Assembly (NCBI GenBank): GCA_002897715.1
Contig: BDUA01000039.1
Location: 244 to 64,243, forward strand
Length of the DNA: 64,000 nucleotides
Direction of reading: 5' to 3'
From: a bacterium BMS3Abin01
GTDB lineage: Bacteria; Actinomycetota; Thermoleophilia; BMS3ABIN01
Made by a program: the position numbers and the translations under genes
In this document: one piece after another, positions 6,188 through 55,760 of the stretch
Layout of the letters: each line of letters opens with the position of its first letter
Numbering within the stretch: the first letter of the stretch is position 1
The notes under the pieces: generated by a model
The model's database searches: none
Told to the model about the DNA's origin: nothing
The model's input: the letters and a program-made list of their open reading frames with translations, nothing else

Positions 6188-7296
6188 TCCTGGTGCTCCT
6201 GTAGGAAGGCCAGAATGGTATCGATCACCTGGCCGAGCTGTGCCTGGTCGATCTCAGGGAAAACGGGCAGCGAAAGGATCTCCTTCACTATCCGTTCAGT
6301 GACCGGCAGGACCATACCCCCCGTCTCATCTGCATAAGCCGGCTGCTTATGCACCGGGACCGGATAGTGGACCAGGGTCCGCACCCCCCTGGTTGACAGG
6401 TACGACTGCAGTTCATCCCGCCTGGCTGTGCGGATAACGAACAGATGATAAACATGGCGACCCCATTCCCGCTCCACCGGCAGTATCAATCCCGAGCCGG
6501 ACAGCCCCCGGCGATAAACAGACGCCGCCCGCCGGCGCCTGTTCGAATATTCATCCAGCCTCTTCAGCTTTACCCGTAGTATTGCCGCCTGTATCTCGTC
6601 CAGCCGGCTGACGTCGCCCTTGTAGATGTTCAGGTATCGCTGCTGGCCCTGGCCGCAGTTGGCCAGGGAGCGGATCTTGGCCGCCAGGCCGCTGTCGGCG
6701 GTAACCACGGCGCCGCCATCGCCGCAAGCCCCCAGGTTCTTTGTGGGATAAAAACTGAAACAGCCCACGGTACCGATGGTCCCGGCGGCGCGCCCCTTGT
6801 ACGCGGCGCCATGGGCCTGGGCACAATCCTCTATCACGGCCAGTCCGTGTTCCCCGGCAAAAGCCATAATGGGGTCCATGTCCGCCGGATGTCCATAAAG
6901 ATGCACCGGCATGACCGCCCTGGTCCGGTCGGTCCTCACCCTTTCCAGCCCCTCCGTATTCATGCAGTATGTATCCTCATCCACATCCAGGAGAACCGGC
7001 CTGGCCCCGGTCTTGGAGATGGCCAGGGCCGTGTTCACCGCAGTATGGGAAACGGTGACCACCTCGTCACCGGCACCGATGTCCAGCGCCTTGAGCGCCA
7101 GGTACAAGGCATCGGTTCCGGAATTCACTGTGGCGACCTCCACCCCTCCCAGCCAGCGTCCGAATTCTTCCTCAAAGGCTTCTACGTTTTCACCCAGCAC
7201 GAAACAGCCGCCGGCAAGTACCCGGGAGACAGCCGCGTCTATCTCGTCTTTAAGGTCTTCATAACCGGCCTTCAGATCGATATAAGGAACATCCAT
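6166..7296 (-). CDS. DegT/DnrJ/EryC1/StrS (ArnB-like) PLP-dependent sugar aminotransferase
   Basis: Fold-type I aminotransferase signature: 'VLGENVEAFEEEFGRWLG', 'VNSGTDALYLAL', 'VTVSHTAV', 'FSFYPTKNLGACGDGG' (lysine region). Confidence 0.85.
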   Translation of the reverse strand: MDVPYIDLKAGYEDLKDEIDAAVSRVLAGGCFVLGENVEAFEEEFGRWLGGVEVATVNSGTDALYLALKALDIGAGDEVVTVSHTAVNTALAISKTGARPVLLDVDEDTYCMNTEGLERVRTDRTRAVMPVHLYGHPADMDPIMAFAGEHGLAVIEDCAQAHGAAYKGRAAGTIGTVGCFSFYPTKNLGACGDGGAVVTADSGLAAKIRSLANCGQGQQRYLNIYKGDVSRLDEIQAAILRVKLKRLDEYSNRRRRAASVYRRGLSGSGLILPVEREWGRHVYHLFVIRTARRDELQSYLSTRGVRTLVHYPVPVHKQPAYADETGGMVLPVTERIVKEILSLPVFPEIDQAQLGQVIDTILAFLQEHQDCLQPSS

Positions 7297-7298
7297 GA

Positions 7299-8390
7299 CT
7301 AGATGAATTCCAGGTGTTTCCGGTTTTCAACTATCCAGTCGCGCGCCAGCACGGCCGCCTCGTGGAACGGACAGTCGAACACGGCGCATTCCCTGGGCCT
7401 GGTGGCGTGAAACGCATCGAGGTGACGCCGGCTGTACCAGATCTCCGGAAAGCTCTTGTTATAGACATTGCCGATGCGGTGTGTTTTCTTGCGATGATGG
7501 AAAAAGGCGCAGAGGTACATGGTGCCGGTGGCGTCGATCACCGGATGGATGGGGTTGAGAAAGCAGCGTCCGATGACTTTCGTCTTTTCCAGGCTGCCGA
7601 AAACCTGGAATGATTCATCCGAGAGCTCCATGGCCCGCTGCGCGACTTCGCCGGCACGCTCCAGCTCATCGCCTTCCAGGGTGAACTTGCTGGCGCGCAG
7701 TGCCTTGTATTGAAGGTAATCCAGCCCCATGTCCCTGGCAAGCTCCGCGGCGACAGCCAGCTCCGGCCAGTTCTTGCTGGAAACCAGGTATTTAGCGCCG
7801 ATGGTGGCGCTGCCGTATTTTAACCGCCGCGCCGCGCCTTCCCCTTCCCCGGTTGTCCTGGTTCTCCGGTCTGCCAGATCCTCAAGATTCCTGACAAGGG
7901 TTTCGAACTCATCCCGCCCATGGATCTTCCGGTAGGTTTCCCGGGTGCCCGCGTCAAAGGCCACCCGCAGGAACAGCAGATTCTGCACCAGGAACTCCGA
8001 CAGCTCGTCGTTCAGCAGGGTGCCATTGGTGAACATCCCCACTTTCAGGCCCCGGCTGCGCATGAAGGCTATCGCCGGGACGATGCTGGGGTAAAGCAGC
8101 GGCTCCCCCCCTCCCGATATCTCCACTCCCTCCACCCCCAGCTCGGCTATGTCGGTCACGACCTCCTTGAAAATTTCGAAATCAAGAAAGCGCTCCTCGT
8201 CTTTGTGCATATACCGGGAATGGCAGCCGGCACAGGCGTGGTTGCAGGTATTGGACAGGAAGAACTCCATGGTGCGGGGAACGGGCATCTTGCCCTCCAG
8301 TATCTGCCGCACCTCGTGGTAGCAGGAAAGGATCTTCATCGCCCCGATGGGGATCTTGTCTACGCTAATCATGGTCAGCTTTCCGGTCAT
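7299..8390 (-). CDS. Radical SAM enzyme with C-terminal Cys-rich SPASM/twitch-like extension
   Basis: 'CNHACAGC' CxxxCxxC motif. Additional C-terminal cysteines (CFLNP...CAFF...CAVFDC). Translationally coupled to the downstream GT2. Confidence 0.75.
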   Translation of the reverse strand: MTGKLTMISVDKIPIGAMKILSCYHEVRQILEGKMPVPRTMEFFLSNTCNHACAGCHSRYMHKDEERFLDFEIFKEVVTDIAELGVEGVEISGGGEPLLYPSIVPAIAFMRSRGLKVGMFTNGTLLNDELSEFLVQNLLFLRVAFDAGTRETYRKIHGRDEFETLVRNLEDLADRRTRTTGEGEGAARRLKYGSATIGAKYLVSSKNWPELAVAAELARDMGLDYLQYKALRASKFTLEGDELERAGEVAQRAMELSDESFQVFGSLEKTKVIGRCFLNPIHPVIDATGTMYLCAFFHHRKKTHRIGNVYNKSFPEIWYSRRHLDAFHATRPRECAVFDCPFHEAAVLARDWIVENRKHLEFI

Positions 8391-9180
8391 AGGTCTTTGT
8401 CCGTTCGGCGGCCGTGGCCGGCAACCGTCCCTTCAGGAACCGGTTGAAACGACGCTTGACCCTGATCGTCCCCACCAGCATCTTCACGCTCTCTTTCCAG
8501 ACATCGGTCTCGCCGCTGGTAGTATCATGACGCCAGGGCAATCCCACCTCCACAACCCTGTACCCACATGCGTTTGCCTGGGCGACCAGCTCCGTCAACA
8601 GCTCGAAACCATCGGACCGCAGGTCGACATCCGCCAGAATCTTCCGGTAAAAGGCCATAAAACCTGTCTGGGTATCGGTAATGTCGAGGTGAAACAACAG
8701 GCGTGTCAGCAGAGTGTAGCCGCGGCTGAATATCCGGCGCTTCAACGGATAGTCGGCCCGGATACCGGCATACCTCGACCCCACGGCCATGTCGGCTCCC
8801 TCCAGTGATTCTAGCAGTTCCGGCAGAGTCCTCTCCGGCGGCATCGCCATGTCGGCGTCCATCTGAAAGATTATCTCTCCCGCGGCGATCCCGTACATCT
8901 GCCGGTATGTGAACCCCGCCCCCCGGTTGGGGTAGTGGCTGGCCACCTTTACCGCCGCATCCTCCCCGGCCAATCTCCTTAACGACTCCAGGGTGCCGTC
9001 GGTGCTGCCGTCATCGCCGAAAATGATCTCGTAGGTCACCGGCAGCGCCCGACAGGCCTCCTTGAGCTTCTCGTAACTGCTCCTGATGATCGTTGCTTCG
9101 TTAAAGCAGGGAACCAGCACGCTTATCCGTGGTCCCTCACCTGCTTCGGCCCGGGGATGATCCGGTTCGACGGCGTTCAC
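8365..9180 (-). CDS. GT2 glycosyltransferase, polyprenyl-phosphate sugar synthase (Dpm1/ArnC)-like
   Basis: 'ISVLVPCFNEA', 'DDGSTDGT' and a DxD region. ~270 aa soluble GT-A fold. GTG start overlaps the TGA stop of the upstream radical SAM gene (GTGA). Confidence 0.75.
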   Translation of the reverse strand: MNAVEPDHPRAEAGEGPRISVLVPCFNEATIIRSSYEKLKEACRALPVTYEIIFGDDGSTDGTLESLRRLAGEDAAVKVASHYPNRGAGFTYRQMYGIAAGEIIFQMDADMAMPPERTLPELLESLEGADMAVGSRYAGIRADYPLKRRIFSRGYTLLTRLLFHLDITDTQTGFMAFYRKILADVDLRSDGFELLTELVAQANACGYRVVEVGLPWRHDTTSGETDVWKESVKMLVGTIRVKRRFNRFLKGRLPATAAERTKTYDRKADHD

Positions 9181-10619
9181 AGAAGATCCTTCCGGTGATT
9201 ATCGCGGCGGGAGGCCACCACGTACCGCAGGAACTCCCTGGAAGCCCTGATGCTCTCACCGGGATGGCGGGTCAGACTCCCTATCTTCCTGGCGATATAG
9301 GCGGGGTTTAAATAATAGCGGCGGTAGAACTCCGCCTCCCGGCCGGTGCCGGCCTGATTCCTGAATTCACAGGTATAGGGCTTCAGGGAAAAGACGATGT
9401 TGTCCTTCTCCCGCTCGAACAGCTCCGTATTGGGGTAGGGAACCAGAGTGGAGACGGCGATGAATTCCAGTTTCAGCTTCTTTGCCAGGGCGATGCTCTG
9501 CTCGAAATCCGCCCGCTCCTCCACCGGGGACCCCACGATGAACCAGCCGACCATCTCCAGGCCGCTCTGCCGTACTTCCCTGAGGTTGTCCATTACCGCA
9601 TCCAGCCGGTAACCACGCTTGAGGTAATCGATCACTTTCTGTGAGCCGCTCTCGATGCCCACATAGATGCGGCGGCAGCCCGCATCCCGCAGTGCCGCGG
9701 CCACCTCCCCGTCAATGGTATTGGGACGGGTGAGACAGCTCCAGGTTATCTCGCTGGAGAGGTCACGCAGCCCGGCGCATATCTGCAGCGCTCTCTCCCG
9801 GGAGGCGGTAAAGGTATCGTCCATGAAACGGAAGTACCTGATGCCGGAGCCCTCCACCGCCGACCTCACCTCACTGACCACATGTTCTGCGGAAGCCTTG
9901 ACGAACTTGCGGCCGTAGGTCCTGACACAATACACGCAGGGGAACGGGCATCCCCTCGAAGACTGGAAGGTGGTATAGGGGTGGCCGAAAAACGGCTCGC
10001 CGTAGCGGGAATGGTCGATGGCGGCCTGGTCGGCGAACGGCAGTTCGTCCAGAGATTCGATCCGCTGATAATCGGCGGGGATGAACTGCCCGTCATCTTT
10101 CATGGCAGCCACACCGTCACCTTCCAGCGGTTGATTGTTCATCAGCCTCTGGAGAGCCTTGCGGAAGGAGTTGTCCGGCTCGCCGACCAGCACAAAATCG
10201 GTTTCCGTCGCCCTCAGGCATTCGTGGCTGAAACTGCTGGGAAGGTGGCCGAAGGTGCCCACCATCGCTCCCGGTAACTCCTTTTTCAGTCTTGCCATGA
10301 ATTCCACGTCATTATCGAAGAATTCGATCGCCATAATGGCGACGACCATATCGGGATCGTATCTTCCGGCCTGCTCCAGTGCTTCTTCCGCTGACAAGGC
10401 CTCGGCGATGCAGTCCATCAGACGCACCTGGCAACCACCCTCCGCCCTGGCCTGCGCCGACAGATACATCAGTTCCATGGGGGGGAACAGAAAGTTTGGC
10501 GCGTTGTATGAGCAGACATAACGCCGGATAATCTGGGACCGGTAAGGGGGATTGATAAGAAGTACTTTCAAATCACACCGTCCGGGTAAGTAAATATGCT
10601 GTGTATGGTAGTATAGCAA
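9177..10619 (-). CDS. Cobalamin-binding (class B) radical SAM enzyme
   Basis: 'LKVLLINPPY' B12-binding-like N-terminus. 'SSRGCPFPCVYC' radical SAM motif. Confidence 0.8.
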   Translation of the reverse strand: MLYYHTQHIYLPGRCDLKVLLINPPYRSQIIRRYVCSYNAPNFLFPPMELMYLSAQARAEGGCQVRLMDCIAEALSAEEALEQAGRYDPDMVVAIMAIEFFDNDVEFMARLKKELPGAMVGTFGHLPSSFSHECLRATETDFVLVGEPDNSFRKALQRLMNNQPLEGDGVAAMKDDGQFIPADYQRIESLDELPFADQAAIDHSRYGEPFFGHPYTTFQSSRGCPFPCVYCVRTYGRKFVKASAEHVVSEVRSAVEGSGIRYFRFMDDTFTASRERALQICAGLRDLSSEITWSCLTRPNTIDGEVAAALRDAGCRRIYVGIESGSQKVIDYLKRGYRLDAVMDNLREVRQSGLEMVGWFIVGSPVEERADFEQSIALAKKLKLEFIAVSTLVPYPNTELFEREKDNIVFSLKPYTCEFRNQAGTGREAEFYRRYYLNPAYIARKIGSLTRHPGESIRASREFLRYVVASRRDNHRKDLL

Positions 10620-10663
10620 GGCATGGAGGAATACATCGGCACATCCCCCCCTGGTTTTCAGTC

Positions 10664-11059
10664 ATGATCTTCATGATTATCGGCATTACTTTACTGGCGA
10701 GCACGGCCGATGTCATGCTGAAGGTCGGCGCCTCCCGGGCCGGCGGCGCCTTGACCGACCCGCTGGTCCTTATCCAGATCCCCTGGGTCTGGCTGGGCGC
10801 GATACTTGGACTCGCCGCCATGGCCCTGTGGATCTACGTTCTGAGCAAACATCACATCAGCCATGCCTATCCGATATTCGTAGGCATGACCTTCATTAAT
10901 ATTTCGCTGGCCGCCGGCATCTACCTCGACGAGAGGTACAGCGTCAGGCGGCTGTCCGGCACCGTGATGGTTCTGGCGGGTATTGTCGTTGTTCACATCT
11001 TTTCCCGGGATCTCGCCCCGGCCTCACCGCGGCGGCGGGAGCGGGGGAAACAGGATTGA
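10664..11059 (+). CDS. Small 4-TM EamA/SMR-like membrane protein, ArnE-like flippase subunit
   Basis: ~130 aa with four hydrophobic helices. Adjacent to, and coupled with, a second paralogous small 4-TM gene, as in arnE/arnF. Start chosen at the internal Met after the divergent promoter; the track ORF starts at 10601. Confidence 0.55.
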   Translation: MIFMIIGITLLASTADVMLKVGASRAGGALTDPLVLIQIPWVWLGAILGLAAMALWIYVLSKHHISHAYPIFVGMTFINISLAAGIYLDERYSVRRLSGTVMVLAGIVVVHIFSRDLAPASPRRRERGKQD

Positions 11060-11060
11060 C

Positions 11061-11426
11061 ATGGATGCCGCCTGGATCCCGCTGGTACTCTCCGTCTCGC
11101 TTTTCGCGGCCCTGGGCAACACGCTGTTAAAGCTGGGGGCGGACCGCGGGCCGGGTGAAGCGCCCATCACTATCGGCACCCTTCACCATACACTGCTGAA
11201 ACCGGTGATTATCGTCGGTGTCGCCGCCTATGCCGTCTCTCAGGTGTTGTGGATCACGGAGCTGAGGGTTACCGACCTCTCGCTTGCCTATCCTCTGCAG
11301 ATCGGCCTTAATTTCACCATGATCACCGGTATCGCCCGGCTCTACCTGAAGGAACCGATGTCCACCGGGAAGCTGATGGGCATAGCCCTGATCCTGGCGG
11401 GTATCGTCCTGGTGACCACCGGCTGA
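11061..11426 (+). CDS. Small 4-TM EamA/SMR-like membrane protein, ArnF-like flippase subunit
   Basis: ATG at 11061 lies 1 nt after the upstream TGA, with a 'GGGGGAAACAGGA' Shine-Dalgarno-like stretch upstream. Four TM helices. Confidence 0.55.
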   Translation: MDAAWIPLVLSVSLFAALGNTLLKLGADRGPGEAPITIGTLHHTLLKPVIIVGVAAYAVSQVLWITELRVTDLSLAYPLQIGLNFTMITGIARLYLKEPMSTGKLMGIALILAGIVLVTTG

Positions 11427-11450: not shown

Positions 11451-12866
11451 TCAGGCCCAATGAAGGAAATCCTTCGCCATGCGCGCCAGGGCGCCGATGT
11501 CCCCGGTGGACTTTATCTTTCCCAGCGTTTTCATGACCACATGCGGCTGGCGATAGAAGCTCAGATAAGCCCGGTCCCTGGCGGCCATGACCTGTTCAGT
11601 GCTCAGTGAGGGCGTAGAAAGGATAGAGGTGTTCTGCTCGAAGTATTTCCAGTCCGTCTCACCGAGCCATCCGTTCTCGATGCTCTGTTCGTAAAGTTCG
11701 GAGCCGGGGAAGGCGACGGCGCAATAGAACTGCGCATAGTCCAGCCTGAGGAACCTGGCGAGATCTATCGTCATTTGCAGCGATTCCTCTGTTTCACCGG
11801 GCAGGCCCAGGATGCAGTGACCGGTTACTTCCAGCCCCACCTCATGGGCCATCCTCACGGCGGTGACCACATCGGTGATAGTGGTTTTCTTTTTTACCGC
11901 GTCCAGTATCTCCTGGCTGCCGCTCTCGATGCCGAACCCGATCATCCAGCAGCCGGCTTCCTTGATGGTCCTTAAAAACTCGGGGGATACCGTATCCACC
12001 CGGCTGTTACATACCCAGCTGACGTCCAGGTTGCGATCGATCATCTCCCGGGCGGTGGCTATCGCGTAATCCTGGTCATTGGTGAAGGACTCCGCCCAGA
12101 ACAGGAAATCCCGAATACCGAAGCTGTCCCTGATCCAGGATATCTCGTCCACGATCCTGGCGGGAGACCGTTTGCGTACCCTGGCCCCGTAATAAGCCTT
12201 GCTGGCGCAGAAGGTGCAGGCGTAGGGACAGCCGCGGGCGCTGGCGACCAGCAGGTACCGCTTGCCGGTGAAGGGCAGCCGGTAGCGGCCGGTGTCCACC
12301 AGGTCCCAGGCCGGGAACGGCAGCTCGTCCAGATCCTCGATGAACGGCCGCCTCTCATTATGGTGGACGATACCGTCCCGGCGATAGGAGAGCCCCGGGA
12401 TACCTTCCAGAGACCTGTCCTCGCTTATGGCCGCGGCCGCGTCCCGTATGGAGTATTCCGGTTCGCCGCGAACGATGATGTCCAGCCGGTCGTTGATGGC
12501 AAAACATTCATCCGGCAGGGTGCTGGGATGTATGCCCATGACCAGCGTCCGGCAGGCGGGAGCGGCGTCCTTTACCAGCGCCGCCACGGCGATATCCTGA
12601 TCGATGGAGGTGGTAGCCGTGTTTATCACCACCAGCGACGGCTGCCAGTCCCTGACCTCCCGGCTGACATCCTCGCCGCTGATATCCTCGACGCTGCCGT
12701 CGCGTATCCTGACTTCGAACCCCTCGTCCCTCAGCACGGCGGCGACGGTCGCCAGGGACACCGGCGACCATACGGTCGTCCAGGCGTCGGTCCTCTGCAT
12801 GCAACGCCCCTCCCTGATGACGTTCACCCCCTGCTCCGGCGGCGGGTTCAGTAACAGCACTCTCAT
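11451..12866 (-). CDS. Cobalamin-binding (class B) radical SAM enzyme
   Basis: 'MRVLLLNPPP' B12-binding-like N-terminus. 'SARGCPYACTFC' motif. Confidence 0.8.
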   Translation of the reverse strand: MRVLLLNPPPEQGVNVIREGRCMQRTDAWTTVWSPVSLATVAAVLRDEGFEVRIRDGSVEDISGEDVSREVRDWQPSLVVINTATTSIDQDIAVAALVKDAAPACRTLVMGIHPSTLPDECFAINDRLDIIVRGEPEYSIRDAAAAISEDRSLEGIPGLSYRRDGIVHHNERRPFIEDLDELPFPAWDLVDTGRYRLPFTGKRYLLVASARGCPYACTFCASKAYYGARVRKRSPARIVDEISWIRDSFGIRDFLFWAESFTNDQDYAIATAREMIDRNLDVSWVCNSRVDTVSPEFLRTIKEAGCWMIGFGIESGSQEILDAVKKKTTITDVVTAVRMAHEVGLEVTGHCILGLPGETEESLQMTIDLARFLRLDYAQFYCAVAFPGSELYEQSIENGWLGETDWKYFEQNTSILSTPSLSTEQVMAARDRAYLSFYRQPHVVMKTLGKIKSTGDIGALARMAKDFLHWA

Positions 12867-12901
12867 GTGATGATCATCATCCGGATCAACCTCTCAACCT
12901 C

Positions 12902-14281
12902 TCAATTGCTGTAGGAGATCAGGGCCTTCAGTATCTCTTTTACCTGGCCGGGCCGCGTATTGCGGAGCAGATGCCACATCTGATGGGGGCGTCCGTAGAA
13001 TCTCAGAACCGACCGGCGCTGCCAGCGATTCAGCTGCCTGGCATCAAGATCCCCCATCGGGAACGGCGTGAAATAGTTGAAAGCCCTGTAATCTATGCTT
13101 CCATCCCGGGAACGGTCCAGTACCTGCTCCTGAAAGATGGCCGATCCGGGCAGGGGAGCCAGCAGGCCGAAATTGGCCCGGTCGAAAGGAACCTTCAGGG
13201 CAAAGGATACGGTCTCCTTGATGGTATCCACCGTCTCTCCCGGCAGGCCGATGATGAAGAAGCCGTTGGTCTCGATGCCGTGACCTTTGACCATCTCCAC
13301 CTTGCCGGCCACTTTTTCCAGGTTCAGCCTCTTGTGGTTGATGTCCAGCACCTTCTGGCTGCCGGATTCGATGCCGAACCCCAGGGCGTAACAACCGGAG
13401 CGCCGCATCAGGTCCAGCAGTTCATCGTCCAGCGAATCGATGCGCACGCCGTTGGGTGTGCTCCAGACGATATCCAGCCCGCGCCGCAGCATCTCTTCAC
13501 AGATGGCGGCCGCATGGCTGCGCTTCAGGGTGAAATTATCATCCTCGAAATGTATCTCCTGCACCTGGTAATCCTTAACCAGCATCTCAATCTCATCCAC
13601 CACGTTCTCCGGCGACCGCGTCCGCCATCTCTTCCCCCAAAGGGTGGTAGAGGCGCAGAAAGTACAGTCAAAGGGGCAGCCGCGGCTGGTCATGACCGAA
13701 CCCACGGGAAACTTCCGGGAAAGCAGCTGGTGCGGCAGGTCCGGATATGTGCGGGGGTCCATCAGCTCCCATGCCGGAAAGGGCAGGGAATCCAGGTCTT
13801 CGATGAATGGCGAGCGCCGGCTGCAGCTGACCTCATCACCGACCAGCCGGCAGACACTCGCCAGCTCACCGTCAGGGCTGCGGCCGGCCGCCAGCGCATC
13901 GACTACCCGGGGGAACACCAGCTCCGCCTCGCCGATGATCCCCAGCGGCACCCCCAGGTTCTTCAGAGCGTCATCGGGGACCGCCGTGACATGGGGACCG
14001 CCGATCACCAGCGGTACGGACGGCAATTTCTGCTTGATGGCGGCAATCAGCTCCTGGGCGGGAAGATAGGCGGTGCTGAGGATGCTGATACCTATGAGGT
14101 CGGGCTTCAGCAGGGCAAGCTCCCTGACCCCGCTCTCGGCGCCCAGCCGCCGCCTGGCGAGATCCAGCAGCGCCACCTCGTGGCCTCTTTGCTGGACACA
14201 GGCCGCCAGATAACCCAGCCCCAGGGGTGGGGTTACAGTGTGGGCGCTTGAGTTGGGAGCAACCAGGACTACTTTCATCAC
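12902..14281 (-). CDS. Cobalamin-binding (class B) radical SAM enzyme
   Basis: 'MKVVLVAPNSS...IGGPHVT' B12-binding-like N-terminus. 'TSRGCPFDCTFC' motif. Confidence 0.8.
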   Translation of the reverse strand: MMKVVLVAPNSSAHTVTPPLGLGYLAACVQQRGHEVALLDLARRRLGAESGVRELALLKPDLIGISILSTAYLPAQELIAAIKQKLPSVPLVIGGPHVTAVPDDALKNLGVPLGIIGEAELVFPRVVDALAAGRSPDGELASVCRLVGDEVSCSRRSPFIEDLDSLPFPAWELMDPRTYPDLPHQLLSRKFPVGSVMTSRGCPFDCTFCASTTLWGKRWRTRSPENVVDEIEMLVKDYQVQEIHFEDDNFTLKRSHAAAICEEMLRRGLDIVWSTPNGVRIDSLDDELLDLMRRSGCYALGFGIESGSQKVLDINHKRLNLEKVAGKVEMVKGHGIETNGFFIIGLPGETVDTIKETVSFALKVPFDRANFGLLAPLPGSAIFQEQVLDRSRDGSIDYRAFNYFTPFPMGDLDARQLNRWQRRSVLRFYGRPHQMWHLLRNTRPGQVKEILKALISYSN

Positions 14282-14306
14282 AAGGGGCGGCGATATCCGG
14301 ACTGTC

Positions 14307-14993
14307 TTATTTGATAAGGTTCTTGATCAGGCACCAGACATACCTGTAGGCGACCTTCCACACCACGATCTGGGATTCACCTGCACGTCGCTGATATTCA
14401 TGAGTGGGAACTTCGGAGATACGGAAGCCCCGCCTCAGGCACTTCATTATCATTTCCTGCTCGATGGTGAAAATATCTTCTGTCATCATGATGGTCCGCG
14501 CCGCCTCGGTGGAAATGGCCCGGAAACCGTTCTGGCTATCGGTCAGCTTGACATGCCAGCGGTAATTGATCGACAGGGTGATTATGGAACTGCCGGTGCT
14601 GCGGATAAATTTGCCCATGTCACCGAAAAGCTCGTCGCTGCCGCCCTTCCAGCGTGAGCCGACCACCAGATCGGACCTCCCTTCGGCAATGGGGGCCACC
14701 AGCGCCGGGATATCATCCGGGTCGTGTGACAGGTCGGCGTCGATGAAGACCAGGATATCCCCCCGGGCGACCTCGATAGCCTTCCTGATGCCATCGCCCT
14801 TGCCATGGCCATCATCCAGGACTACGGTGGCGCCCAGCGATTCTGCTATCTGCCGCGTACGGTCCTGGGAGTGACCATCCACCACCAGGGTCTCATCAGC
14901 GTGCGGCATCACACCGGTTACCGCTTCTTCGATAGTGGCCTGTTCATTGCGCGTCATGATGGCCACTGTCACTTTTTTATCGTTACCTGCCAA
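14307..14993 (-). CDS. GT2 glycosyltransferase, polyprenyl-phosphate sugar synthase (Dpm1/ArnC)-like
   Basis: 'KVTVAIMTRNE', 'VVDGHSQDRT' and 'FIDADLSHDP' (DxD). Start refined to TTG at 14991-14993, preceded by AAGGAG at 7-nt spacing. The track ORF extends to 15116 and would overlap the upstream gene by 34 nt. Confidence 0.7.
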   Translation of the reverse strand: MAGNDKKVTVAIMTRNEQATIEEAVTGVMPHADETLVVDGHSQDRTRQIAESLGATVVLDDGHGKGDGIRKAIEVARGDILVFIDADLSHDPDDIPALVAPIAEGRSDLVVGSRWKGGSDELFGDMGKFIRSTGSSIITLSINYRWHVKLTDSQNGFRAISTEAARTIMMTEDIFTIEQEMIMKCLRRGFRISEVPTHEYQRRAGESQIVVWKVAYRYVWCLIKNLIK

Positions 14994-15082
14994 ACGATTG
15001 CTCCTTGGAATTAGAGGGTAGCATACGCCCCTGACTATCGCTACGCAGCCGTCTCGCGGCCCTTTCTCCCGGCTATGCCGGT

Positions 15083-15910
15083 TCAGGCCATGAAGGGGGA
15101 CCCGATGAAGGCACACAGTCCGTTGACGAATTTATCTCTTTCCCTGCCGCGAATCACATCGGAGGTCTCGTTCCTCACCGGACTGTCGGTCACCAGCAGC
15201 GCCATGGCGGTCTTCAGGCCCATATAGTTTGCCAGAGCGAACTGGCTGGACGCTTCCAGCTCTACCGCCAGCAGACCGTCCCGGTTCCAGGATGAGATTA
15301 GCTCCTCCGTCTCCCGGAAGACGGCGCCGGTGGTAACAATGGGCCCCTGTCTGACCGGTAACCCCCGCCCGTCGAGAAAACCGGCAAGAGCGGCGGTAAG
15401 CTCGGGGTCCGCCGGAACCAAGTCACCGTACTCATAGCCGTAATGGAGCGACAGGCAGTCGCCCGCCCGGGAGGACTCGGCCACGATGATGTCACCGCAG
15501 TCGATATCCTCCTGCAGGGCGCCGCAGGTGCCCAGGCCGATGACCGTATCGACGCGGGTGAACTTCAGGCTGCGCATGATGCCCTCCAGGATGACCGTCC
15601 CCGGCGGCACCCGCATATAGCCCACCAGCCGGCCACCGATATAGCCCGTGTACAGGGCGCCGAAATGCTTATGGCTACCCAGCAGGGGGCTGAGGAAATC
15701 CTCGCCCAGGGCCAGCAACATTACCCTGGGGGTAAAATCATGGGGGTCGCTTCCCTGGAAGACCCAGCGCTCAGAGGCGAAACGGATGAATTTTTCTTCC
15801 CAGTTGGTCATCATGTCTCCATTTACAATTTCATTATCCTTAAGCCACTCCCGTTCGTGTCCCGCCGCCCCCGGTGCCTGTATCATATCCCCCATCCGGA
15901 AACCGGACAA
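15083..15910 (-). CDS. MTA/SAH (5'-deoxyadenosine) nucleosidase family protein (Pfs/MtnN-like) with N-terminal extension
   Basis: Aligns by eye to E. coli MTAN: 'VIGLGTCGAL' vs 'SGIGKVAAAL', 'GDIIVAE...GYEYGDL' vs 'GDIVVSD...GYEYGQL', 'AVELEASS' vs 'AVEMEATA'. Confidence 0.75.
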   Translation of the reverse strand: MSGFRMGDMIQAPGAAGHEREWLKDNEIVNGDMMTNWEEKFIRFASERWVFQGSDPHDFTPRVMLLALGEDFLSPLLGSHKHFGALYTGYIGGRLVGYMRVPPGTVILEGIMRSLKFTRVDTVIGLGTCGALQEDIDCGDIIVAESSRAGDCLSLHYGYEYGDLVPADPELTAALAGFLDGRGLPVRQGPIVTTGAVFRETEELISSWNRDGLLAVELEASSQFALANYMGLKTAMALLVTDSPVRNETSDVIRGRERDKFVNGLCAFIGSPFMA

Positions 15911-16012
15911 CGCCGGCCGTAGCCGCTGGACTTCCGCCAGGGACTTCCATGTTCCATAACATGGTCGCGGGACGCAAGGACAGTCCCGCCGGCTGGACAG
16001 CGGGCGCCGCCG

Positions 16013-18562
16013 CTACACAGTGTAATCGCCGTGGATGAATCGCCGCGCATATTCGTCAGCGACCGCATCGCTGATCAACGGCGCATCCAGCTGGCGGGTA
16101 TAGGCCATGAGCCTGCCGACCTGATCCAGGACGCGCAGGGCTTCCGCCTCGTTCACGTTGGTGACCACGCCCGTGATCAAGTCTCCCTTTATCTCGGTCA
16201 CAAAACCAAAATGCCGGAGTATGGTTTCCAGCATGTGGACCCGCCGCACCCGTTTGGAGACGGCCGCCGCCCCGCCCAGAAAGCGGAAATAGACGTGATT
16301 ATTGACGGATTTGGTATCGACGAAAGCGTCGACTATGGTGAAATGGTAACCGAAACGTACGGCCAGGTTCAGGTAGCGCCGCGATATCACGGCCAGGTTT
16401 ATATGGACGCTGTCCTGGATATCCCCGGTGCGCATGCTGGCGGTCATCAGGTCCGACAGGCTGACGTTGCCTACGCTCTGGCGCCAGGCGCCCGGATGGG
16501 TCATCCCTTCAAGAACGGCCCGCAACGGCGCCGAATTCACCTGCTCCATGGAAACCTTTTTTTCCGTATCCGGCTTCAACCCGTCGCCGATGTCGATAAC
16601 ATGTATGTCTTCCATCAGGGAGATATCCAGCTGTTTGAGCGAAGCCCGCCGGTCGGCATACCGCGAGGAGTCGATCAGCTTCTGCATCGATTTTTCGTGC
16701 ATGAACCTGAGGATATCGTGGACGGTGCGGCAGCGTTCCGGCAGGAAATCATCGGTAAAGGGATTTACCAGGTTCAGCGGCGCGATGAACTTCATGATGT
16801 ATTTTTTCCGGCGGAACTCGAACAGCTCTTCCAGCTTGATGAAACTGTCGTGATGCCCGCCGATGATTCCAGTGGCCACCCCCCGGTACACCACCATGCC
16901 GCCATCCTCGCCGGCCTTCAGGGTGATCTCCTCGCCGGACTTTATCAGGTCGGTGGCGTTGCCGGCATTGACCACAGTAGGAACCCTGAACTCGCGGCTG
17001 ACTGAAGCCATATGGCTGGTGGCGTTGCCCGAATCGGTGATAATGGCCGCGGCGTAGGGCATGACGCGGACGAACTGGGGTGAATCGTTGCGCGCGACCA
17101 GTATGGCCCCCCAGGGAAAATCATCAAGGGTCGACGTTTCATCAACCATAAACGCCCTGCCGCCCACAACCCCCGGATAAACCACTATGCCCTGGTCGTG
17201 CATAAGCACCGGGTGCTCTCCGGCCGGTTGTGCGTCCACTGTTTTCGTGGTCTCCCCGCCGGCGGGCTCCTGTATCCTGAGGAGCCGTGACTGCAGGATA
17301 ACCACCCGTCCGTTCCGATCCAGCGCCCATTCGATATCCTGGGGCTCATGGTAAAAGTTCTCGATCTTCATCGCCTGCCGGGACAGCTCAGCCAGCTGTT
17401 CCTCATTGAGCGAGGGGGCGCGCTGCCGGTCGGCGGACACCTCACGCTCCTCCAGCCCGCCCGCCGCGGCCATAACGGCCATGGTGTCCTTCTTCCCCAG
17501 CCTGATCTCTTCCGGCTGGAAGGGGGGTGTCTTTTTTACCCGGAACGTATCCGCTTCGGTGAGATTGTCCACCACGGAGGTTCCCAGCCCCCAGGCGGAG
17601 TTGATCAGCATCGACTGCCGGTCTTTACCCATGGGGTTGACTGTATAAGCCACACCACTGGCGACGGCGTCCACCATGGCTATGACCCCCACTGCCATCC
17701 TCATGGCGGCGGGGCTGTAGTTGAGGTTCAGCTGATAGGCGATAGCATCTTCGGAGAACAGGCTGGCGACGACCCGGCGGTAAGCGTCCAGAACGGCGTC
17801 CACGTCAGGGGATACGTTCAATACGGTCTCGAACTGGCCGGCGAAAGAGAAGACCTCATCTTCCTCTTCACCGCTGCTGCGCACCGCCAGGCTGCAGGCG
17901 CCTTCACATTCCTGCCGCAGCCTTCCCAGCGCCTCCTCCACTTCCCTCTTCAGGGAGTCCGGGAACCCGCCCGCCATTACGCGGGCGCGCAGCTCCGCCA
18001 GCATGCCGGGCTCGTACTCATGTTCTTCCAGCTCGGCGAGGTCCTGGTCCAGATGGTTATGCCTGATGAAGTCATCGTAAGCGTGAACGGTGAGGACGAA
18101 CCCATCGGGGACCGCCAGCCCCACGGCGTTCTTTACCTGGGAAAGGTGGTAATTCTTGCCCCCCACCGCTTTCGCCGCCTCCGGCAGGATATCATCGAAG
18201 GATATCAGCCGCCGCTGAGCCCTCTTTGCCTGAGGGTTGAGCAGCTCCCGGATATGCAGGTCGATGCTGTTGAAAACCGGTTCAAGCTGCGGATACTGGC
18301 CATCAGTAAGCCGGTTGAAATCCGCCAGGGAAACCCGCATGGCCGTAGCCAGCTCGCTGTAGGCCTCCCGCATATAGGCGATGTCGAACAGGTACCCCCC
18401 GCTCATCTTTTCGCTCATGTCATTAATGATCTTCAGAGCGCGGTCGTTATCATCGAGGATCTTCTTGTAACCCTGGAATACGGACTGGATATTGACATGC
18501 CTGACTTGCAACTGACTTCCGTATCGCCCCAGCAGGGACCGCATTTTCTTCAGTATGGCCAT
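16013..18562 (-). CDS. PEP synthase / pyruvate phosphate dikinase family phosphotransferase (PPDK_N ATP-grasp + phosphohistidine swivel domain + divergent C-terminal domain)
   Basis: 'GGKNYHLSQVKNAVGLAVPDGFVLT' PPDK_N signature. Mobile-domain 'DSGNATSHMASVSREFRVPTVV' (TSHAAI-like phospho-His). The ~330-aa C-terminus does not resemble the canonical PEP-utilising TIM barrel. Confidence 0.7.
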   Translation of the reverse strand: MAILKKMRSLLGRYGSQLQVRHVNIQSVFQGYKKILDDNDRALKIINDMSEKMSGGYLFDIAYMREAYSELATAMRVSLADFNRLTDGQYPQLEPVFNSIDLHIRELLNPQAKRAQRRLISFDDILPEAAKAVGGKNYHLSQVKNAVGLAVPDGFVLTVHAYDDFIRHNHLDQDLAELEEHEYEPGMLAELRARVMAGGFPDSLKREVEEALGRLRQECEGACSLAVRSSGEEEDEVFSFAGQFETVLNVSPDVDAVLDAYRRVVASLFSEDAIAYQLNLNYSPAAMRMAVGVIAMVDAVASGVAYTVNPMGKDRQSMLINSAWGLGTSVVDNLTEADTFRVKKTPPFQPEEIRLGKKDTMAVMAAAGGLEEREVSADRQRAPSLNEEQLAELSRQAMKIENFYHEPQDIEWALDRNGRVVILQSRLLRIQEPAGGETTKTVDAQPAGEHPVLMHDQGIVVYPGVVGGRAFMVDETSTLDDFPWGAILVARNDSPQFVRVMPYAAAIITDSGNATSHMASVSREFRVPTVVNAGNATDLIKSGEEITLKAGEDGGMVVYRGVATGIIGGHHDSFIKLEELFEFRRKKYIMKFIAPLNLVNPFTDDFLPERCRTVHDILRFMHEKSMQKLIDSSRYADRRASLKQLDISLMEDIHVIDIGDGLKPDTEKKVSMEQVNSAPLRAVLEGMTHPGAWRQSVGNVSLSDLMTASMRTGDIQDSVHINLAVISRRYLNLAVRFGYHFTIVDAFVDTKSVNNHVYFRFLGGAAAVSKRVRRVHMLETILRHFGFVTEIKGDLITGVVTNVNEAEALRVLDQVGRLMAYTRQLDAPLISDAVADEYARRFIHGDYTV

Positions 18563-18568
18563 TACGGT

Positions 18569-18943
18569 TTAGGGCTTATCATCCGGGATCAACGCTTTCC
18601 GGATCGACTCCTTCAGTTCCTTGATCCTGACCGGCTTGGGAAAGAAGTCGAATACGTCCTCCTTGATGGCTTCGATGGCCACGTCCAGGTTGGCAAAAGC
18701 GGTTATCATGATGACCTTGGTATTGGGATACAGCTTCTTCACCGTCCTTAGAACCTCCAGGCCGTCGATATTCTTCATTTTCAGGTCGGTTACCACTACA
18801 TCGAAGGGCTGCTCCTCCAGCTTCTTCAGAGCCGGGCCGGCGTTTAGGAAAGTCTCCACCTCGTAGCCCTCTTCCTCCAGTGATATCTTGGCCATGTCTC
18901 CAACTATTTTCTCATCATCTATGATCATGATCCTGTGACTCAT
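18569..18943 (-). CDS. Stand-alone response regulator receiver domain (CheY-like)
   Basis: 'IMIIDDE...VVTDLKM...IMITA' with conserved Asp/Lys positions. No output domain. Confidence 0.85.
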   Translation of the reverse strand: MSHRIMIIDDEKIVGDMAKISLEEEGYEVETFLNAGPALKKLEEQPFDVVVTDLKMKNIDGLEVLRTVKKLYPNTKVIMITAFANLDVAIEAIKEDVFDFFPKPVRIKELKESIRKALIPDDKP

Positions 18944-39400: not shown

Positions 39401-39519
39401 GGCAGACTCCCGATATTGACCTCTATGAACTCTAGCAACAAGACGGAACGCAAACAAGGAGCGCCGCTACCTATGGTTCCAGCCCCCGGGGTGACCGGCC
39501 CCAAACCGATAAGACAGAG

Positions 39520-41872: not shown

Positions 41873-42009
41873 CTGCGACCGTTCCGCCTTGCCGCTGTCG
41901 CCGGCTTCATCCCGCCGCGGCACTGTGCTACACTATTCCACCGGTCAGGCGTGCGGCCAACGGTCGGACCGGCCCGCGGTGAACCGTCCGGCCTGTATTC
42001 AACATAGAT

Positions 42010-42085
<76 letters not shown>

Positions 42086-45681: not shown

Positions 45682-46135
45682 GTCTCCTGGTCGGCAGCCA
45701 AGCTGTCATAGCCCCGGTGGACCTTAGACCTTTGGCTTTGCGCCGCCCCGTTTCCGGGGTTTTGCCTTTTTCACAGGGGCCCGGCTTCTCCCAATACCCA
45801 AACCCGTGTCTGTAAGCTATATCGGAAATGATCTTGAGAATATTAACCGCACAGACATCGACGGTTTGAGCGGTTATAGCCCCGTTTTTCGGAAACGGCG
45901 GCACGGTGGAAGCGGCATCCGGCCGGATAGGCGGCAATCAGGTGAGTTCCGTATTGAAATAATCGTACATTTATGAGACTATTACTTTGTTTTGGGGCAC
46001 TGTTGCACTTATTGAAGGCGGGAAAAGCGGGGGCATGGCTGGCCTGAGCGGAGCCTGGGCCGTAAGATGTTGGCCGGGATTAAGCAGGTTTATAGTCCCG
46101 CCGGAAATGTAGATCAGCTATAGAGAATTAAAAAA

Positions 46136-55669: not shown

Positions 55670-55760
55670 CACACTCGACAAAGGCAAACCCGTCGTGAGG
55701 CGGGGACGCAAAGCCAGGGGTCTCCGGTTGGGAGACAGCCCAGCCGCCGAAGCTTTTTGA
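55670..55760 (+). ncRNA. Candidate cyclic-di-GMP-I (GEMM) riboswitch in the leader of the surface-protein cluster
   Basis: 'AAAGGCAAACC', then the GNRA hairpin CGUC-GUGA-GGCG, then 'GGGACGCAAAGCC' + AGGGG. Then hairpin GUCUCC-GGUUG-GGAGAC and 'CAGCCCAGCCGCC'. Matches the Vc2-type GEMM core '...GGCAAACC...GAAA...GGGACGCAAAGCC...GG' by eye. Confidence 0.55.

What the first reader, a model, noticed from the sequence alone, without database searches (positions are those of the whole stretch)
15083..15910. MTA/SAH (5'-deoxyadenosine) nucleosidase homologue embedded among the radical SAMs
Every radical SAM turnover releases 5'-deoxyadenosine, a product inhibitor. Pfs/MtnN-type nucleosidases are the known clean-up enzymes. 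This ORF shows strong MTAN similarity (the GYEYG motif and the catalytic Glu/Asp contexts), carries a ~65-aa N-terminal extension, and sits inside the radical SAM operon. That placement argues for a dedicated by-product salvage function for this pathway.
Basis: partly seen in the sequence, partly recalled or inferred. Interest (0 to 1): 0.55.

Follow-up and report, generated by a model that had tools for sequence, protein, structure and literature searches.

The report
Orphan nucleosidase-like gene heading radical-SAM operon
The gene is real and encodes a lineage-specific, uncharacterised relative of nucleoside phosphorylases and nucleosidases that always sits first in a radical-SAM-rich cell-envelope sugar-tailoring operon; it may clear adenosine-type by-products, but it is not an MTA/SAH nucleosidase family member and its substrate is unknown.

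Summary
The ORF at 15083-15910 (-) is real, but the gene starts at ATG 15814/15811 and encodes 243/242 aa. Most of the "65-aa extension" is an ORF-calling artefact; about 28 conserved residues remain as an extra N-terminal helix. The protein belongs to the PNP_UDP_1 superfamily (E=1.6e-23) but reaches no curated family cut-off, whether MTAN, DeoD, Udp, HpnG, MqnB or AMP nucleosidase. Its fold and best PDB hits are hexameric PNP/Udp type. Similarity to E. coli MTAN is real but modest (29% over 145 aa).

The shared superfamily Glu and Asp (E187, D210) are invariant. MTAN's water-activating E12 and R193 are not conserved, and two of the three phosphate-binding arginines of PNPs are replaced. I infer a phosphate-independent purine N-ribosyl hydrolase.

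All close homologues come from Thermoleophilia-type MAGs. The gene is always first in an operon, followed in most loci by GT2, B12-radical-SAM(s), an SMR-like pair and a GT-C. Related GT2-rSAM-GT-C modules in other phyla lack it, so it is an accessory add-on.

By-product clean-up (5'-dAdo/SAH) is the best-fitting role (confidence about 0.4) and is untested.

The parts
15083..15814 (-). PNP_UDP_1-superfamily gene (243 aa from ATG 15814, or 242 aa from ATG 15811). It belongs to an orphan subfamily and is predicted to be a phosphate-independent purine N-ribosyl hydrolase.
   Evidence: The ORF was listed and the start was fixed. Pfam gives E=1.6e-23 and no NCBIfam cut-off is reached. The AF2 model has pLDDT 92. 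Foldseek matches DeoD/Udp-type structures at TM about 0.77.
15882..15910 (-). Sigma-70-like promoter match (TTGTCC-17-TATGAT) upstream of the real start.
   Evidence: Found. This is a consensus match only: 2 sites were found against 0.5 expected.
14307..15116 (-). GT2 glycosyltransferase 'GT2a', of the polyprenyl-phosphate sugar synthase type (AglJ, dolichyl-P-hexose transferase, PpgS-like). The maximal ORF is over-extended; homologues are about 228 aa, so the start is near 14990.
   Evidence: Pfam. NCBIfam gives AglJ 136.7 bits and PpgS 60.5 bits. It lies directly downstream of the PNP-like gene in 15 of 17 loci.
12902..14281 (-). B12-binding radical SAM enzyme (BchE / P-methyltransferase-like).
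   Evidence: It is conserved in most related loci.
11451..12866 (-). B12-binding radical SAM enzyme, HpnJ-like over its full length.
   Evidence: HpnJ model 272.5 bits with alignment 1-470 to 1-466, below the cut-off of 577.6. Homologues at about 50% identity in other phyla sit in GT2-rSAM-GT-C modules.
10601..11426 (+). Two overlapping small membrane-protein genes (152 and 147 aa) with weak EamA/SMR similarity. They are candidate ArnE/ArnF-like flippase subunits for a polyprenyl-P-sugar.
   Evidence: ORFs. Pfam hits are weak and below cut-off. The pair is conserved on the opposite strand in 13 of the 19 GTDB loci (14 of the 21 distinct loci).
9177..10619 (-). B12-binding radical SAM enzyme (HpnJ / AprD4-like).
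8365..9180 (-). GT2 glycosyltransferase 'GT2b' (PgfS / PpgS / ArnC-like).
7299..8390 (-). Radical SAM enzyme with a SPASM domain.
6166..7296 (-). DegT/ArnB-type sugar aminotransferase.
   Evidence: Pfam E=5.5e-113. NCBIfam gives ArnB-like 229.5 bits.
4328..6187 (-). DUF2079 membrane protein.
2654..4315 (-). PMT_2 (GT-C fold) glycosyltransferase.
1125..2612 (-). B12-binding radical SAM enzyme.
16013..18562 (-). PEP-synthase-like protein (PPDK_N plus a PEP-utilizers swivel domain, with an unassigned C-terminal region of about 300 aa). It lies directly upstream but is not a conserved partner.
   Evidence: It is present only in the window and its 95%-identical relative L006. In the other loci examined a divergent Wzx-type gene lies upstream instead.

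Best explanation
The gene encodes a lineage-restricted, uncharacterised branch of the NP-I (PNP_UDP_1) superfamily. It most likely hydrolyses, rather than phosphorolyses, the N-ribosidic bond of an adenosine-type purine nucleoside. It is the promoter-proximal gene of an operon that tailors polyprenyl-phosphate-linked sugars with several B12-dependent and SPASM radical SAM enzymes, then flips them and transfers them to a cell-envelope glycan. That arrangement is a 'three-component' GT2 / flippase / GT-C system (PMC11127046). The most likely role is accessory: removing the SAM-derived nucleosides 5'-deoxyadenosine and, for methylating B12-rSAMs, S-adenosylhomocysteine. These inhibit radical SAM enzymes, so the protein would work like Pfs/MtnN without being a member of that family.

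Shown: fold, superfamily membership, conserved Glu/Asp, loss of the phosphate-binding arginines, conserved gene order, and restriction to one lineage.

Inferred: hydrolase chemistry, a purine/adenosyl substrate, and the clean-up role.
For: - Superfamily and fold: Pfam PNP_UDP_1 E=1.6e-23, AF2 pLDDT 92, Foldseek TM about 0.77 to hexameric PNP/Udp.
- Catalytic core kept and invariant: V-E185-L-E187 matches MTAN E172-M-E174 and DeoD E179-M-E181. T209-D210 matches MTAN S196-D197 and DeoD S203-D204, the N7-protonating acid of purine-specific enzymes. E. coli Udp has V221 at this position.
- Canonical phosphate site missing: DeoD R87 and Udp R91 correspond to the invariant G93. DeoD R24 corresponds to L/I41 by hand alignment of the GDPxR loop, while Udp R30 falls in a gap in the hhalign alignment; the MAFFT alignment places this loop differently. 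The column of Udp R48 is variable (K, Q, E or R). Such losses are typical of hydrolytic members (my inference).
- Context: the close family forms a single 50% cluster and comes only from Thermoleophilia/Gaiellales-type MAGs. The gene is first in the operon in all loci. A B12-rSAM gene lies within about 4 kb in 17 of 17 loci with downstream sequence.
- The gene is retained whether the GT2a/rSAM_12902/rSAM_11451 module (L016, L017, L019) or the rSAM_9177/GT2b/SPASM/DegT module (L022) follows it.
- Homologous GT2-rSAM-GT-C modules in Elusimicrobia and other phyla lack any PNP_UDP_1 gene. It is therefore not a required pathway step.
- The window carries 5 radical SAM genes within 14 kb.
- 5'-dAdo inhibits radical SAM enzymes and is removed by a nucleosidase or a phosphorylase (PMC6079011, read).
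Against: - There is no direct evidence for any substrate.
- MTAN's water-activating residues are not conserved: E12 aligns to F40 and R193 to L206. If the protein is a hydrolase, the mechanism must differ; the family-specific G37-E38-D39 and H48-x-H50 motifs are candidates.
- Conserved synteny within one narrow lineage could partly reflect shared descent.
- No SAM, SAH or cobalamin riboswitch lies upstream.
- Other phyla run the same rSAM module without a dedicated nucleosidase, so the need for one is not obvious.
- Remote relatives sit in heterogeneous contexts.
- Whether these genomes have a housekeeping MtnN, MTAP or SAH hydrolase could not be checked.
Confidence: 0.4

Rival explanations
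1. The protein is a pathway enzyme rather than a clean-up enzyme. It would cleave the base from an adenosylated or nucleoside-derived intermediate, as HpnG does for adenosylhopane and MqnB for futalosine. Alternatively it would convert a SAM-derived nucleoside into a pentose that is loaded on polyprenyl phosphate by the adjacent GT2 and delivered by the GT-C, as in the mycobacterial methylthioxylose (MTX) cap made by MtxS and MtxT.
For: - The gene is directly followed by a polyprenyl-P-sugar-synthase-like GT2 in 15 of 17 loci.
- In L022 and in the remote relative P0077 a PMT_2 GT-C is the next gene.
- HpnG is the second-best NCBIfam hit (38.6 bits), and three rSAMs in the cluster are HpnJ-like.
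- MtxS (Rv0539) makes MTX-P-C50 and MtxT (Rv0541c, GT-C) transfers it (PMC8780516).
- From my own memory, unverified: an MTA phosphorylase gene lies near that cluster.
Against: - No adenosyl-transferring rSAM is recognisable. HpnH scores 40.9 bits against a cut-off of 225 on the SPASM enzyme, and there is no MqnE or ArsS hit.
- The window has no squalene-hopene cyclase or mqn genes.
- The conserved operon has no kinase or nucleotidyltransferase to activate a free pentose. The PPDK-like gene is in only 2 loci.
- The GT2-rSAM-GT-C core works without this gene in other phyla.
- The gene is kept regardless of which GT2/rSAM sub-module follows.
Confidence: 0.25
2. The protein is a nucleoside phosphorylase after all, with a purine-salvage or DeoD/MTAP-like role and a non-canonical phosphate site. 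Its position in the operon would be inherited rather than functionally meaningful.
For: - The best sequence and fold matches are hexameric PNPs, S. solfataricus MTAP and Udp.
- JGI auto-annotation calls homologues 'purine-nucleoside phosphorylase'.
- T96 keeps the Ser/Thr of the phosphate loop.
Against: - R87 is replaced by an invariant Gly and R24 by Leu/Ile.
- Scores are 49-51 bits against cut-offs of 230-232.
- The family occurs only at the head of this operon, never in nucleoside-catabolic contexts.
Confidence: 0.15
3. The protein is an AMP-nucleosidase-like or other nucleotide-cleaving enzyme. It would supply ribose 5-phosphate/PRPP or control the adenylate pool for the envelope pathway.
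For: Remote relatives of the family score best against the short AMP nucleosidase model PRK07115, at 57-93 bits. The query itself scores 24.3 bits. Polyprenyl-P-pentofuranose systems start from PRPP (PMC11127046).
Against: - All scores are far below the cut-off of 264.
- The operon has no UbiA-type phosphoribosyltransferase or HAD phosphatase.
- The adjacent transferases are GT2 enzymes that use NDP-sugars.
Confidence: 0.1
4. The protein is a non-catalytic or regulatory NP-I-fold protein, for example a sensor of adenine nucleosides or a scaffold.
For: Both the MTAN-type and the PNP-type nucleophile-handling residues are lost.
Against: E185/E187, D210, the G-T-C-G loop and the base-stacking aromatic region are invariant. 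Family identity is high, at 62-82%. That pattern is typical of an active enzyme.
Confidence: 0.05

Closest known systems
E. coli MTA/SAH nucleosidase (MtnN/Pfs, PDB 1jys/3o4v)
   Same: - NP-I fold.
- 29% identity over residues 54-190.
- E172-M173-E174 matches E185-L186-E187, and S196-D197 matches T209-D210.
- The FGYEYG loop aligns with YGYEYG.
- There is no phosphate-binding Arg at the R87-equivalent position (MTAN N73, query G93).
- It shares the proposed job of clearing 5'-dAdo and SAH.
   Different: - It scores below both curated cut-offs: 26.5 against 73.8, and 28.6 against 169.
- E12 aligns to F40 and R193 to L206.
- It has an extra conserved N-terminal helix of about 28 aa.
- The fold search ranks hexameric PNP/Udp first, and no MTAN appears in the top 50.
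- It carries family-specific G-E-D and H-x-H motifs.
DeoD-type hexameric purine nucleoside phosphorylase (E. coli 1pr0, B. anthracis 1xe3, B. cereus 3uaw) and S. solfataricus MTAP (1jds)
   Same: - These are the best fold and sequence matches: Foldseek E about 1e-18 with TM 0.77, and phmmer 2e-13.
- E181 and D204 are conserved, as is the G-(S/T)-C-G loop.
   Different: - Identity is 18-25%.
- The phosphate-site residues R24 and R87 are replaced by L41 and G93.
- It scores 49-51 bits against cut-offs of 230-232.
- It is never found in a nucleoside-catabolic context.
HpnG (adenosylhopane nucleosidase/phosphorylase) and MqnB (futalosine hydrolase)
   Same: - Same superfamily.
- They are precedents for an NP-I enzyme encoded beside radical SAM genes that removes a purine base from a pathway intermediate (adenine for HpnG).
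- The neighbouring rSAMs here are HpnJ-like.
   Different: - Scores are 38.6 against 187 for HpnG and 24.1 against 124.7 for MqnB.
- The window has no HpnH/MqnE-type adenosylating rSAM, no squalene-hopene cyclase and no mqn genes.
Three-component extracytoplasmic glycosylation systems (GtrA/B/*, Arn, mycobacterial DPA and MTX systems)
   Same: The surrounding operon has the hallmark parts: a GT2 polyprenyl-P-sugar synthase, a small SMR/EamA-like membrane pair, and GT-C transferases (PMC11127046; PMC8780516).
   Different: Known systems carry no B12-radical-SAM tailoring enzymes and no NP-I family gene inside the operon.
Short AMP-nucleosidase-like proteins (NCBIfam PRK07115)
   Same: This is the best-scoring model for several of the family's remote relatives (five of ten tested). 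All are NP-I proteins, mostly without the R87-equivalent arginine.
   Different: The query itself scores only 24.3 bits against a cut-off of 264, and there is no evidence for a nucleotide substrate.

Membership tests
PNP_UDP_1 / NP-I superfamily (Pfam PF01048) | Profile score above the Pfam gathering threshold, and the alpha/beta NP-I fold. | tested here: met
   The score is 83.8 bits against 25.1, E=1.6e-23. The AF2 model has pLDDT 92, and Foldseek gives TM about 0.77 to PNP/Udp structures.
MTA/SAH nucleosidase (MtnN/Pfs; TIGR01704, NF004079) | Score above the curated equivalog cut-off. | tested here: not met
   The scores are 26.5 against 73.8 and 28.6 against 169 bits.
MTA/SAH nucleosidase (MtnN/Pfs) | Glu12 (activates the nucleophilic water) at the start of helix 1. 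| tested here: inconclusive
   hhalign puts E12 on F40. The near-invariant E38 and invariant D39 lie one or two residues earlier. MAFFT aligns this loop differently. No coordinates were available for a superposition.
MTA/SAH nucleosidase (MtnN/Pfs) | Arg193 (positions the catalytic water). | tested here: not met
   It aligns to L206 in both hhalign and MAFFT.
MTA/SAH nucleosidase (MtnN/Pfs) | Glu174 and Asp197. | tested here: met
   E187 and D210 are invariant in 19 of 19 family members. These residues are shared with PNPs and are therefore not diagnostic.
MTA/SAH nucleosidase (MtnN/Pfs) | Hydrolysis of MTA, SAH and 5'-dAdo. | not testable with these tools
   This needs an enzyme assay.
DeoD-type purine nucleoside phosphorylase (TIGR00107, NF004489) | Score above the curated cut-off. 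| tested here: not met
   The scores are 49.3 against 232.25 and 50.6 against 230 bits.
DeoD-type purine nucleoside phosphorylase | Phosphate-binding Arg24, Arg87 and Arg43* (literature numbering). | tested here: not met
   R87 corresponds to the invariant G93. R24 corresponds to L/I41 by hand alignment of the GDPxR loop; MAFFT places this loop differently. The R43* region is H48-x-H50 with a variable middle residue.
DeoD-type purine nucleoside phosphorylase | Glu181 (ribose) and Asp204 (general acid). | tested here: met
   These are E187 and D210.
HpnG hopanoid-associated phosphorylase (TIGR03468) | Score above the cut-off, and co-occurrence with HpnH and squalene-hopene cyclase. | tested here: not met
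   The score is 38.6 against 187.1 bits. No SHC was found, and the HpnH model scores only 40.9 against 225 on the SPASM rSAM.
Futalosine hydrolase MqnB (TIGR03664) | Score above the cut-off, and an mqn gene context. | tested here: not met
   The score is 24.1 against 124.7 bits. No mqn genes appear among the annotated neighbours.
AMP nucleosidase (NF005500 / TIGR01721) | Score above the cut-off. | tested here: not met
   The scores are 24.3 against 264 and 19.9 against 307 bits.

The most novel reading that the evidence does not exclude
The enzyme is not a waste-disposal nucleosidase but the entry point of a glycan pathway. It would take the adenosyl by-product of the operon's own radical SAM enzymes (5'-deoxyadenosine), or an adenosylated lipid-linked intermediate, and release a 5-deoxypentose or ribosyl unit. 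That unit would be loaded on polyprenyl phosphate by the adjacent GT2, remodelled by the B12-radical-SAM enzymes and attached to the cell envelope by the GT-C. This would parallel the methylthioxylose cap of mycobacterial lipoarabinomannan, with a new NP-I active site using G-E-D and H-x-H instead of Glu12/Arg193 or the phosphate arginines.
Probability: 0.12. Interest if true: 0.75.

Novelty: new variant of a known kind. Interest (0 to 1): 0.35.

Why it matters
If the clean-up reading is right, this would be a clear case of a biosynthetic operon carrying its own structurally distinct 5'-dAdo/SAH nucleosidase. That would be useful to know when expressing B12-radical-SAM enzymes heterologously, because they are notoriously prone to product inhibition. 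It would also add a second, independently evolved hydrolytic active site to the NP-I superfamily.

The surrounding operon is arguably more interesting than the gene. It is a three-component (GT2 / flippase / GT-C) envelope glycosylation system decorated with up to five radical SAM enzymes. Its GT2 - HpnJ-like rSAM - GT-C core is widespread in uncultured phyla. I found no paper in the held library that describes it.

Tried and rejected
- **Hopanoid side-chain cluster (HpnG/H/I/J analogy): rejected.** The window has no squalene-hopene cyclase and no HpnH equivalog. The locus sits among Wzy, Wzx, GT4, Bac_transf and LytR-CpsA-Psr genes.
- **Riboswitch control that would hint at a SAM/SAH/B12 link: none found.** Nothing scores at E<=1 in 15600-16200, and the whole window holds only c-di-GMP riboswitches and one tRNA.
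- **Contexts of remote relatives (P0077-P0082): uninformative.** They are heterogeneous and give no shared functional clue beyond occasional GT-C or polysaccharide genes.
- **NCBIfam on 10 remote relatives: no family reached.** The wider clade is also orphan.
- **The primary MTX paper (Angala 2017) and the 2018 review are not held**. Only secondary statements could be cited.
- **A second NP-I gene in the window: none.** tblastn and a profile search of all ORFs of at least 60 aa found only this gene. This says nothing about the rest of the genome.
- **The PPDK-like upstream gene as a partner kinase: rejected as a conserved part.** It is present only in the window and L006.
Full report
**1. Is the feature there?**

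The ORF listing returns a 275-aa ORF from TTG 15910 to 15083 on the minus strand. It is a real gene. Pfam PNP_UDP_1 matches at E=1.6e-23. Seventy-three database proteins are 62-100% identical. AlphaFold2 folds it with mean pLDDT 92 and pTM 0.90.

The start is wrong, however. The close homologues are mostly about 240-256 aa, and those without upstream over-extension begin at 'M(M)T.WE.KF', which is residue 33 of the ORF. An identical protein in the database (P0001) is 243 aa. A GGAG lies just upstream of the tandem ATGs at 15814 and 15811. The TTG at 15910 falls inside the -35-like hexamer of a promoter-like match, TTGTCC-17-TATGAT at 15910-15882.

The '65-aa N-terminal extension' therefore shrinks to about 28 residues relative to E. 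coli MTAN, because MTAN residue 1 aligns with residue 29. That segment is genuine. It is a conserved helix (residues 5-18) with invariant E15-R16-W17-V18-F19 and D23-P24-H25. A similar 'WE..F' helix occurs in remote relatives.

**2. Which family?**

No curated NCBIfam model is reached:

| Model | Score (bits) | Cut-off (bits) |
|---|---|---|
| DeoD | 50.6 | 230 |
| HpnG | 38.6 | 187 |
| Udp | 36.2 | 280 |
| MTAN | 28.6 / 26.5 | 169 / 73.8 |
| AMP nucleosidase | 24.3 | 264 |
| Futalosine hydrolase | 24.1 | 125 |

- Against all PDB sequences the best hits are Gram-positive and Thermus DeoD-type PNPs and S. solfataricus MTAP (2e-13 to 4e-12). MTANs follow at 6e-8.
- The top 50 Foldseek hits are all hexameric PNP, MTAP(Ss) or Udp, with TM about 0.77 and 17-25% identity.
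- I recalled the E. coli MtnN and DeoD sequences from memory and verified them as identical to PDB 3o4v/1jys and 1pr0.
- Pairwise, the protein is closer to E. coli MTAN (29% over 145 aa, E=2e-9, residues 54-190 only) than to E. coli DeoD (18% over 168 aa, E=1e-6).
- Profile-to-sequence hhalign gives 97.1%, 96.0% and 95.7% probability for MTAN, Udp and DeoD, which shows no real preference.
- In a profile search of 1.84 billion representatives the whole close family collapses into one 50%-identity cluster. The next relatives appear only at E about 1e-40 to 1e-24. Ten of these reach no curated family either. Five of the ten score best on the short AMP nucleosidase model, and the rest on Udp or DeoD, with best scores of about 63-107 bits.

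The protein is therefore an orphan branch of the NP-I superfamily, not an MTAN and not a DeoD PNP.

**3. Active site**

Conserved and invariant in the family:
- V-E185-L186-E187 matches MTAN E172-M173-E174 and DeoD E179-M180-E181.
- T209-D210 matches MTAN S196-D197 and DeoD S203-D204. E. coli Udp has V221 at this column.
- The G-T96-C-G loop is conserved.
- An aromatic residue, F166, lies at or next to the base-stacking Phe.

These residues are common to purine-specific NP-I enzymes, so they do not identify an MTAN.

MTAN-specific residues are not kept:
- E12 aligns to F40, although the near-invariant E38 and invariant D39 lie one or two residues earlier.
- R193 aligns to L206.

PNP-specific residues are not kept either:
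- R87 of DeoD (R91 of Udp) is an invariant Gly, G93: 'VIGLGTCG' against 'IIRVGSCG'.
- R24 corresponds to L/I41 by hand alignment of the GDPxR loop, and Udp R30 falls in a gap in the hhalign alignment. The MAFFT alignment places this loop differently.
- The column of Udp R48 is variable. It is flanked by two invariant histidines, H48 and H50.

The GYEYG pentapeptide aligns exactly with E. coli MTAN G106-G110, in the loop that includes F105 and Y107. From memory, those residues line the 5'-substituent pocket. Only H124-Y125-G126 is invariant in the family, and other members read GFEYG, GYEHG, GVEPG or GTPTG.

My inference is a purine N-ribosyl hydrolase that does not use phosphate and activates water differently from MTAN. 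The chemistry is inferred, not shown. The loop after strand 1 is aligned differently by hhalign and MAFFT, and I could not superpose structures.

**4. Context in the window**

The neighbourhood, all on the minus strand unless noted:

| Coordinates | Gene |
|---|---|
| 16013-18562 | PEP-synthase-like protein |
| 15083-15814 | The NP-I gene |
| 14307 to about 14990 | GT2a (AglJ / Dol-P-hexose / PpgS-like) |
| 12902-14281 | B12-rSAM |
| 11451-12866 | HpnJ-like B12-rSAM |
| 10601-11426 (+ strand) | Two small EamA/SMR-like membrane proteins |
| 9177-10619 | B12-rSAM |
| 8365-9180 | GT2b |
| 7299-8390 | SPASM-rSAM |
| 6166-7296 | DegT/ArnB-like aminotransferase |
| 4328-6187 | DUF2079 |
| 2654-4315 | PMT_2 GT-C |
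| 1125-2612 | B12-rSAM |

Further along lie GT4s, Bac_transf, Wzy and LytR-CpsA-Psr genes. No hopanoid or menaquinone genes are present.

This is the architecture of a 'three-component' extracytoplasmic glycosylation system: a polyprenyl-P-sugar synthase, a flippase and a GT-C (PMC11127046). Here it is augmented with radical SAM tailoring enzymes.

**5. Context elsewhere**

A scan of one genome per GTDB species found 19 loci. All are Thermoleophilia, Gaiellales or 'Actinomycetes' MAGs, and JGI and NCBI contigs agree. I mapped the window's proteins onto all loci with tblastn.

- The NP-I gene is always the first gene of the operon. In the loci examined upstream it is usually divergent from a Wzx-type flippase gene.
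- GT2a follows directly in 15 of 17 loci that have downstream sequence.
- A B12-rSAM gene lies within about 4 kb in 17 of 17.
- The gene persists whichever sub-module follows. L016, L017 and L019 have GT2a, two rSAMs, a divergent DegT/GT2, DUF2079 and PMT_2. L022 has PMT_2, rSAM_9177, GT2b, SPASM, DegT, PMT_2 and rSAM_1125, without GT2a.
- The PEP-synthase-like gene is upstream only in the window and its 95%-identical relative L006.

The HpnJ-like rSAM has homologues at about 50% identity in Elusimicrobia, Nitrospirota, Omnitrophota and others. In three such loci the core is GT2 (211-229 aa), then rSAM with overlapping stop and start codons, then in two of the three a methyltransferase followed by a PMT_2 GT-C, and in the third a GT87 GT-C upstream of the GT2. 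None of them has an NP-I gene.

The NP-I gene is therefore a lineage-specific accessory, not an obligatory step of the GT2-rSAM-GT-C chemistry.

**6. Most likely function**

Radical SAM enzymes release 5'-deoxyadenosine. It inhibits them and is removed by a nucleosidase or a phosphorylase (PMC6079011). B12-dependent rSAM methylases additionally produce SAH (established knowledge).

Several observations point the same way:
- The active site is purine-type and lacks the phosphate arginines.
- The gene is strictly associated with operons encoding three to five or more rSAM enzymes.
- That association does not depend on the particular sub-module.
- The core module in other phyla does without the gene.

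Together they are best explained by an accessory clean-up nucleosidase. It would work like Pfs without being one. I put this at about 0.4.

The main rival, at about 0.25, is a pathway role. It could be HpnG/MqnB-like removal of adenine from an adenosylated intermediate. It could also be an MTX-like route in which a SAM-derived nucleoside becomes a polyprenyl-P-linked pentose; MtxS and MtxT are documented in PMC8780516, while the nearby MTA phosphorylase is from my memory only. The immediate GT2 or GT-C neighbours favour this rival. The lack of any recognisable adenosylating rSAM or sugar-activating enzyme, and the points listed above, argue against it.

The remaining rivals are a true phosphorylase with an unusual phosphate site (0.15), an AMP-nucleosidase-like enzyme (0.1) and a non-catalytic protein (0.05).

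**7. Verdict**

The gene, its superfamily, the Glu/Asp pair, the GYEYG string and the rSAM neighbourhood are real. The MTAN assignment, the word 'strong' and the 65-aa extension are not.

The feature is a new variant within a known superfamily and of moderate interest. The operon it heads is the more unusual object.

Noticed in passing
window 45690-45776 (-) and 55674-55752 (+): Two c-di-GMP-I class riboswitches score 83.1 and 73.9 bits, both above the gathering threshold. The first lies directly upstream of a GH26 + Big_7 secreted glycosidase gene (44107-45681, -). The second lies upstream of ORF 55939-56538 (+). A tRNA is at 42010-42082 (+).
   Followed up: no
L033 9327-13710, L034 9363-13713, L035 7924-11416; window 11451-15116: There is a widespread module of a small GT2 (211-229 aa), an HpnJ-like B12-radical-SAM with overlapping stop and start codons, and a nearby GT-C (PMT_2 downstream, preceded by a class I methyltransferase in two loci, or GT87 upstream of the GT2 in the third). 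It occurs in Elusimicrobia and other uncultured phyla. It looks like radical tailoring of a polyprenyl-P-sugar before extracytoplasmic transfer. I found no paper on it in the held library.
   Followed up: partly
window 16013-18562 (-): An 849-aa PEP-synthase-like protein carries a PPDK_N ATP-grasp domain and a PEP-utilizers swivel domain. About 130 N-terminal and about 300 C-terminal residues match no Pfam family. It sits between a histidine kinase (18940-20349) and the operon. It is present only here and in the 95%-identical relative L006.
   Followed up: partly
window 6166-8390 (-): A SPASM radical SAM gene is immediately followed by a DegT-type aminotransferase, and the pair is conserved in many loci. 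From memory, the logic resembles BtrN + BtrS of butirosin biosynthesis: anaerobic oxidation of a hydroxyl to a ketone, then transamination.
   Followed up: no
window 10601-11426 (+): Two overlapping genes encode small membrane proteins with only sub-threshold EamA/SMR similarity. They are conserved as a pair on the strand opposite to the operon in 14 of the 21 distinct related loci. They are candidate ArnE/ArnF-like flippase subunits.
   Followed up: partly
proteins P0077-P0225: There is a large, diverse clade of unclassified PNP_UDP_1 proteins. Its signature is (E/D)119, (H/Y)124-Y125, (F/Y)166-R-E168, (D/E)-M-E187 and S-D210, mostly without the DeoD-R87 arginine. None of 10 tested members reaches any NCBIfam cut-off.
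   Followed up: partly
L014 11495-13010: The homologue of the HpnJ-like rSAM appears split or frameshifted in this MAG. A 192-aa N-terminal fragment is followed by an out-of-frame ORF. This could be an assembly error or a pseudogene.
   Followed up: no
window 38105-39457 (-): A sixth radical SAM gene (B12-binding type) lies outside the operon, next to two ORFs without Pfam hits at 39397-40401 and 40892-41923.
   Followed up: no
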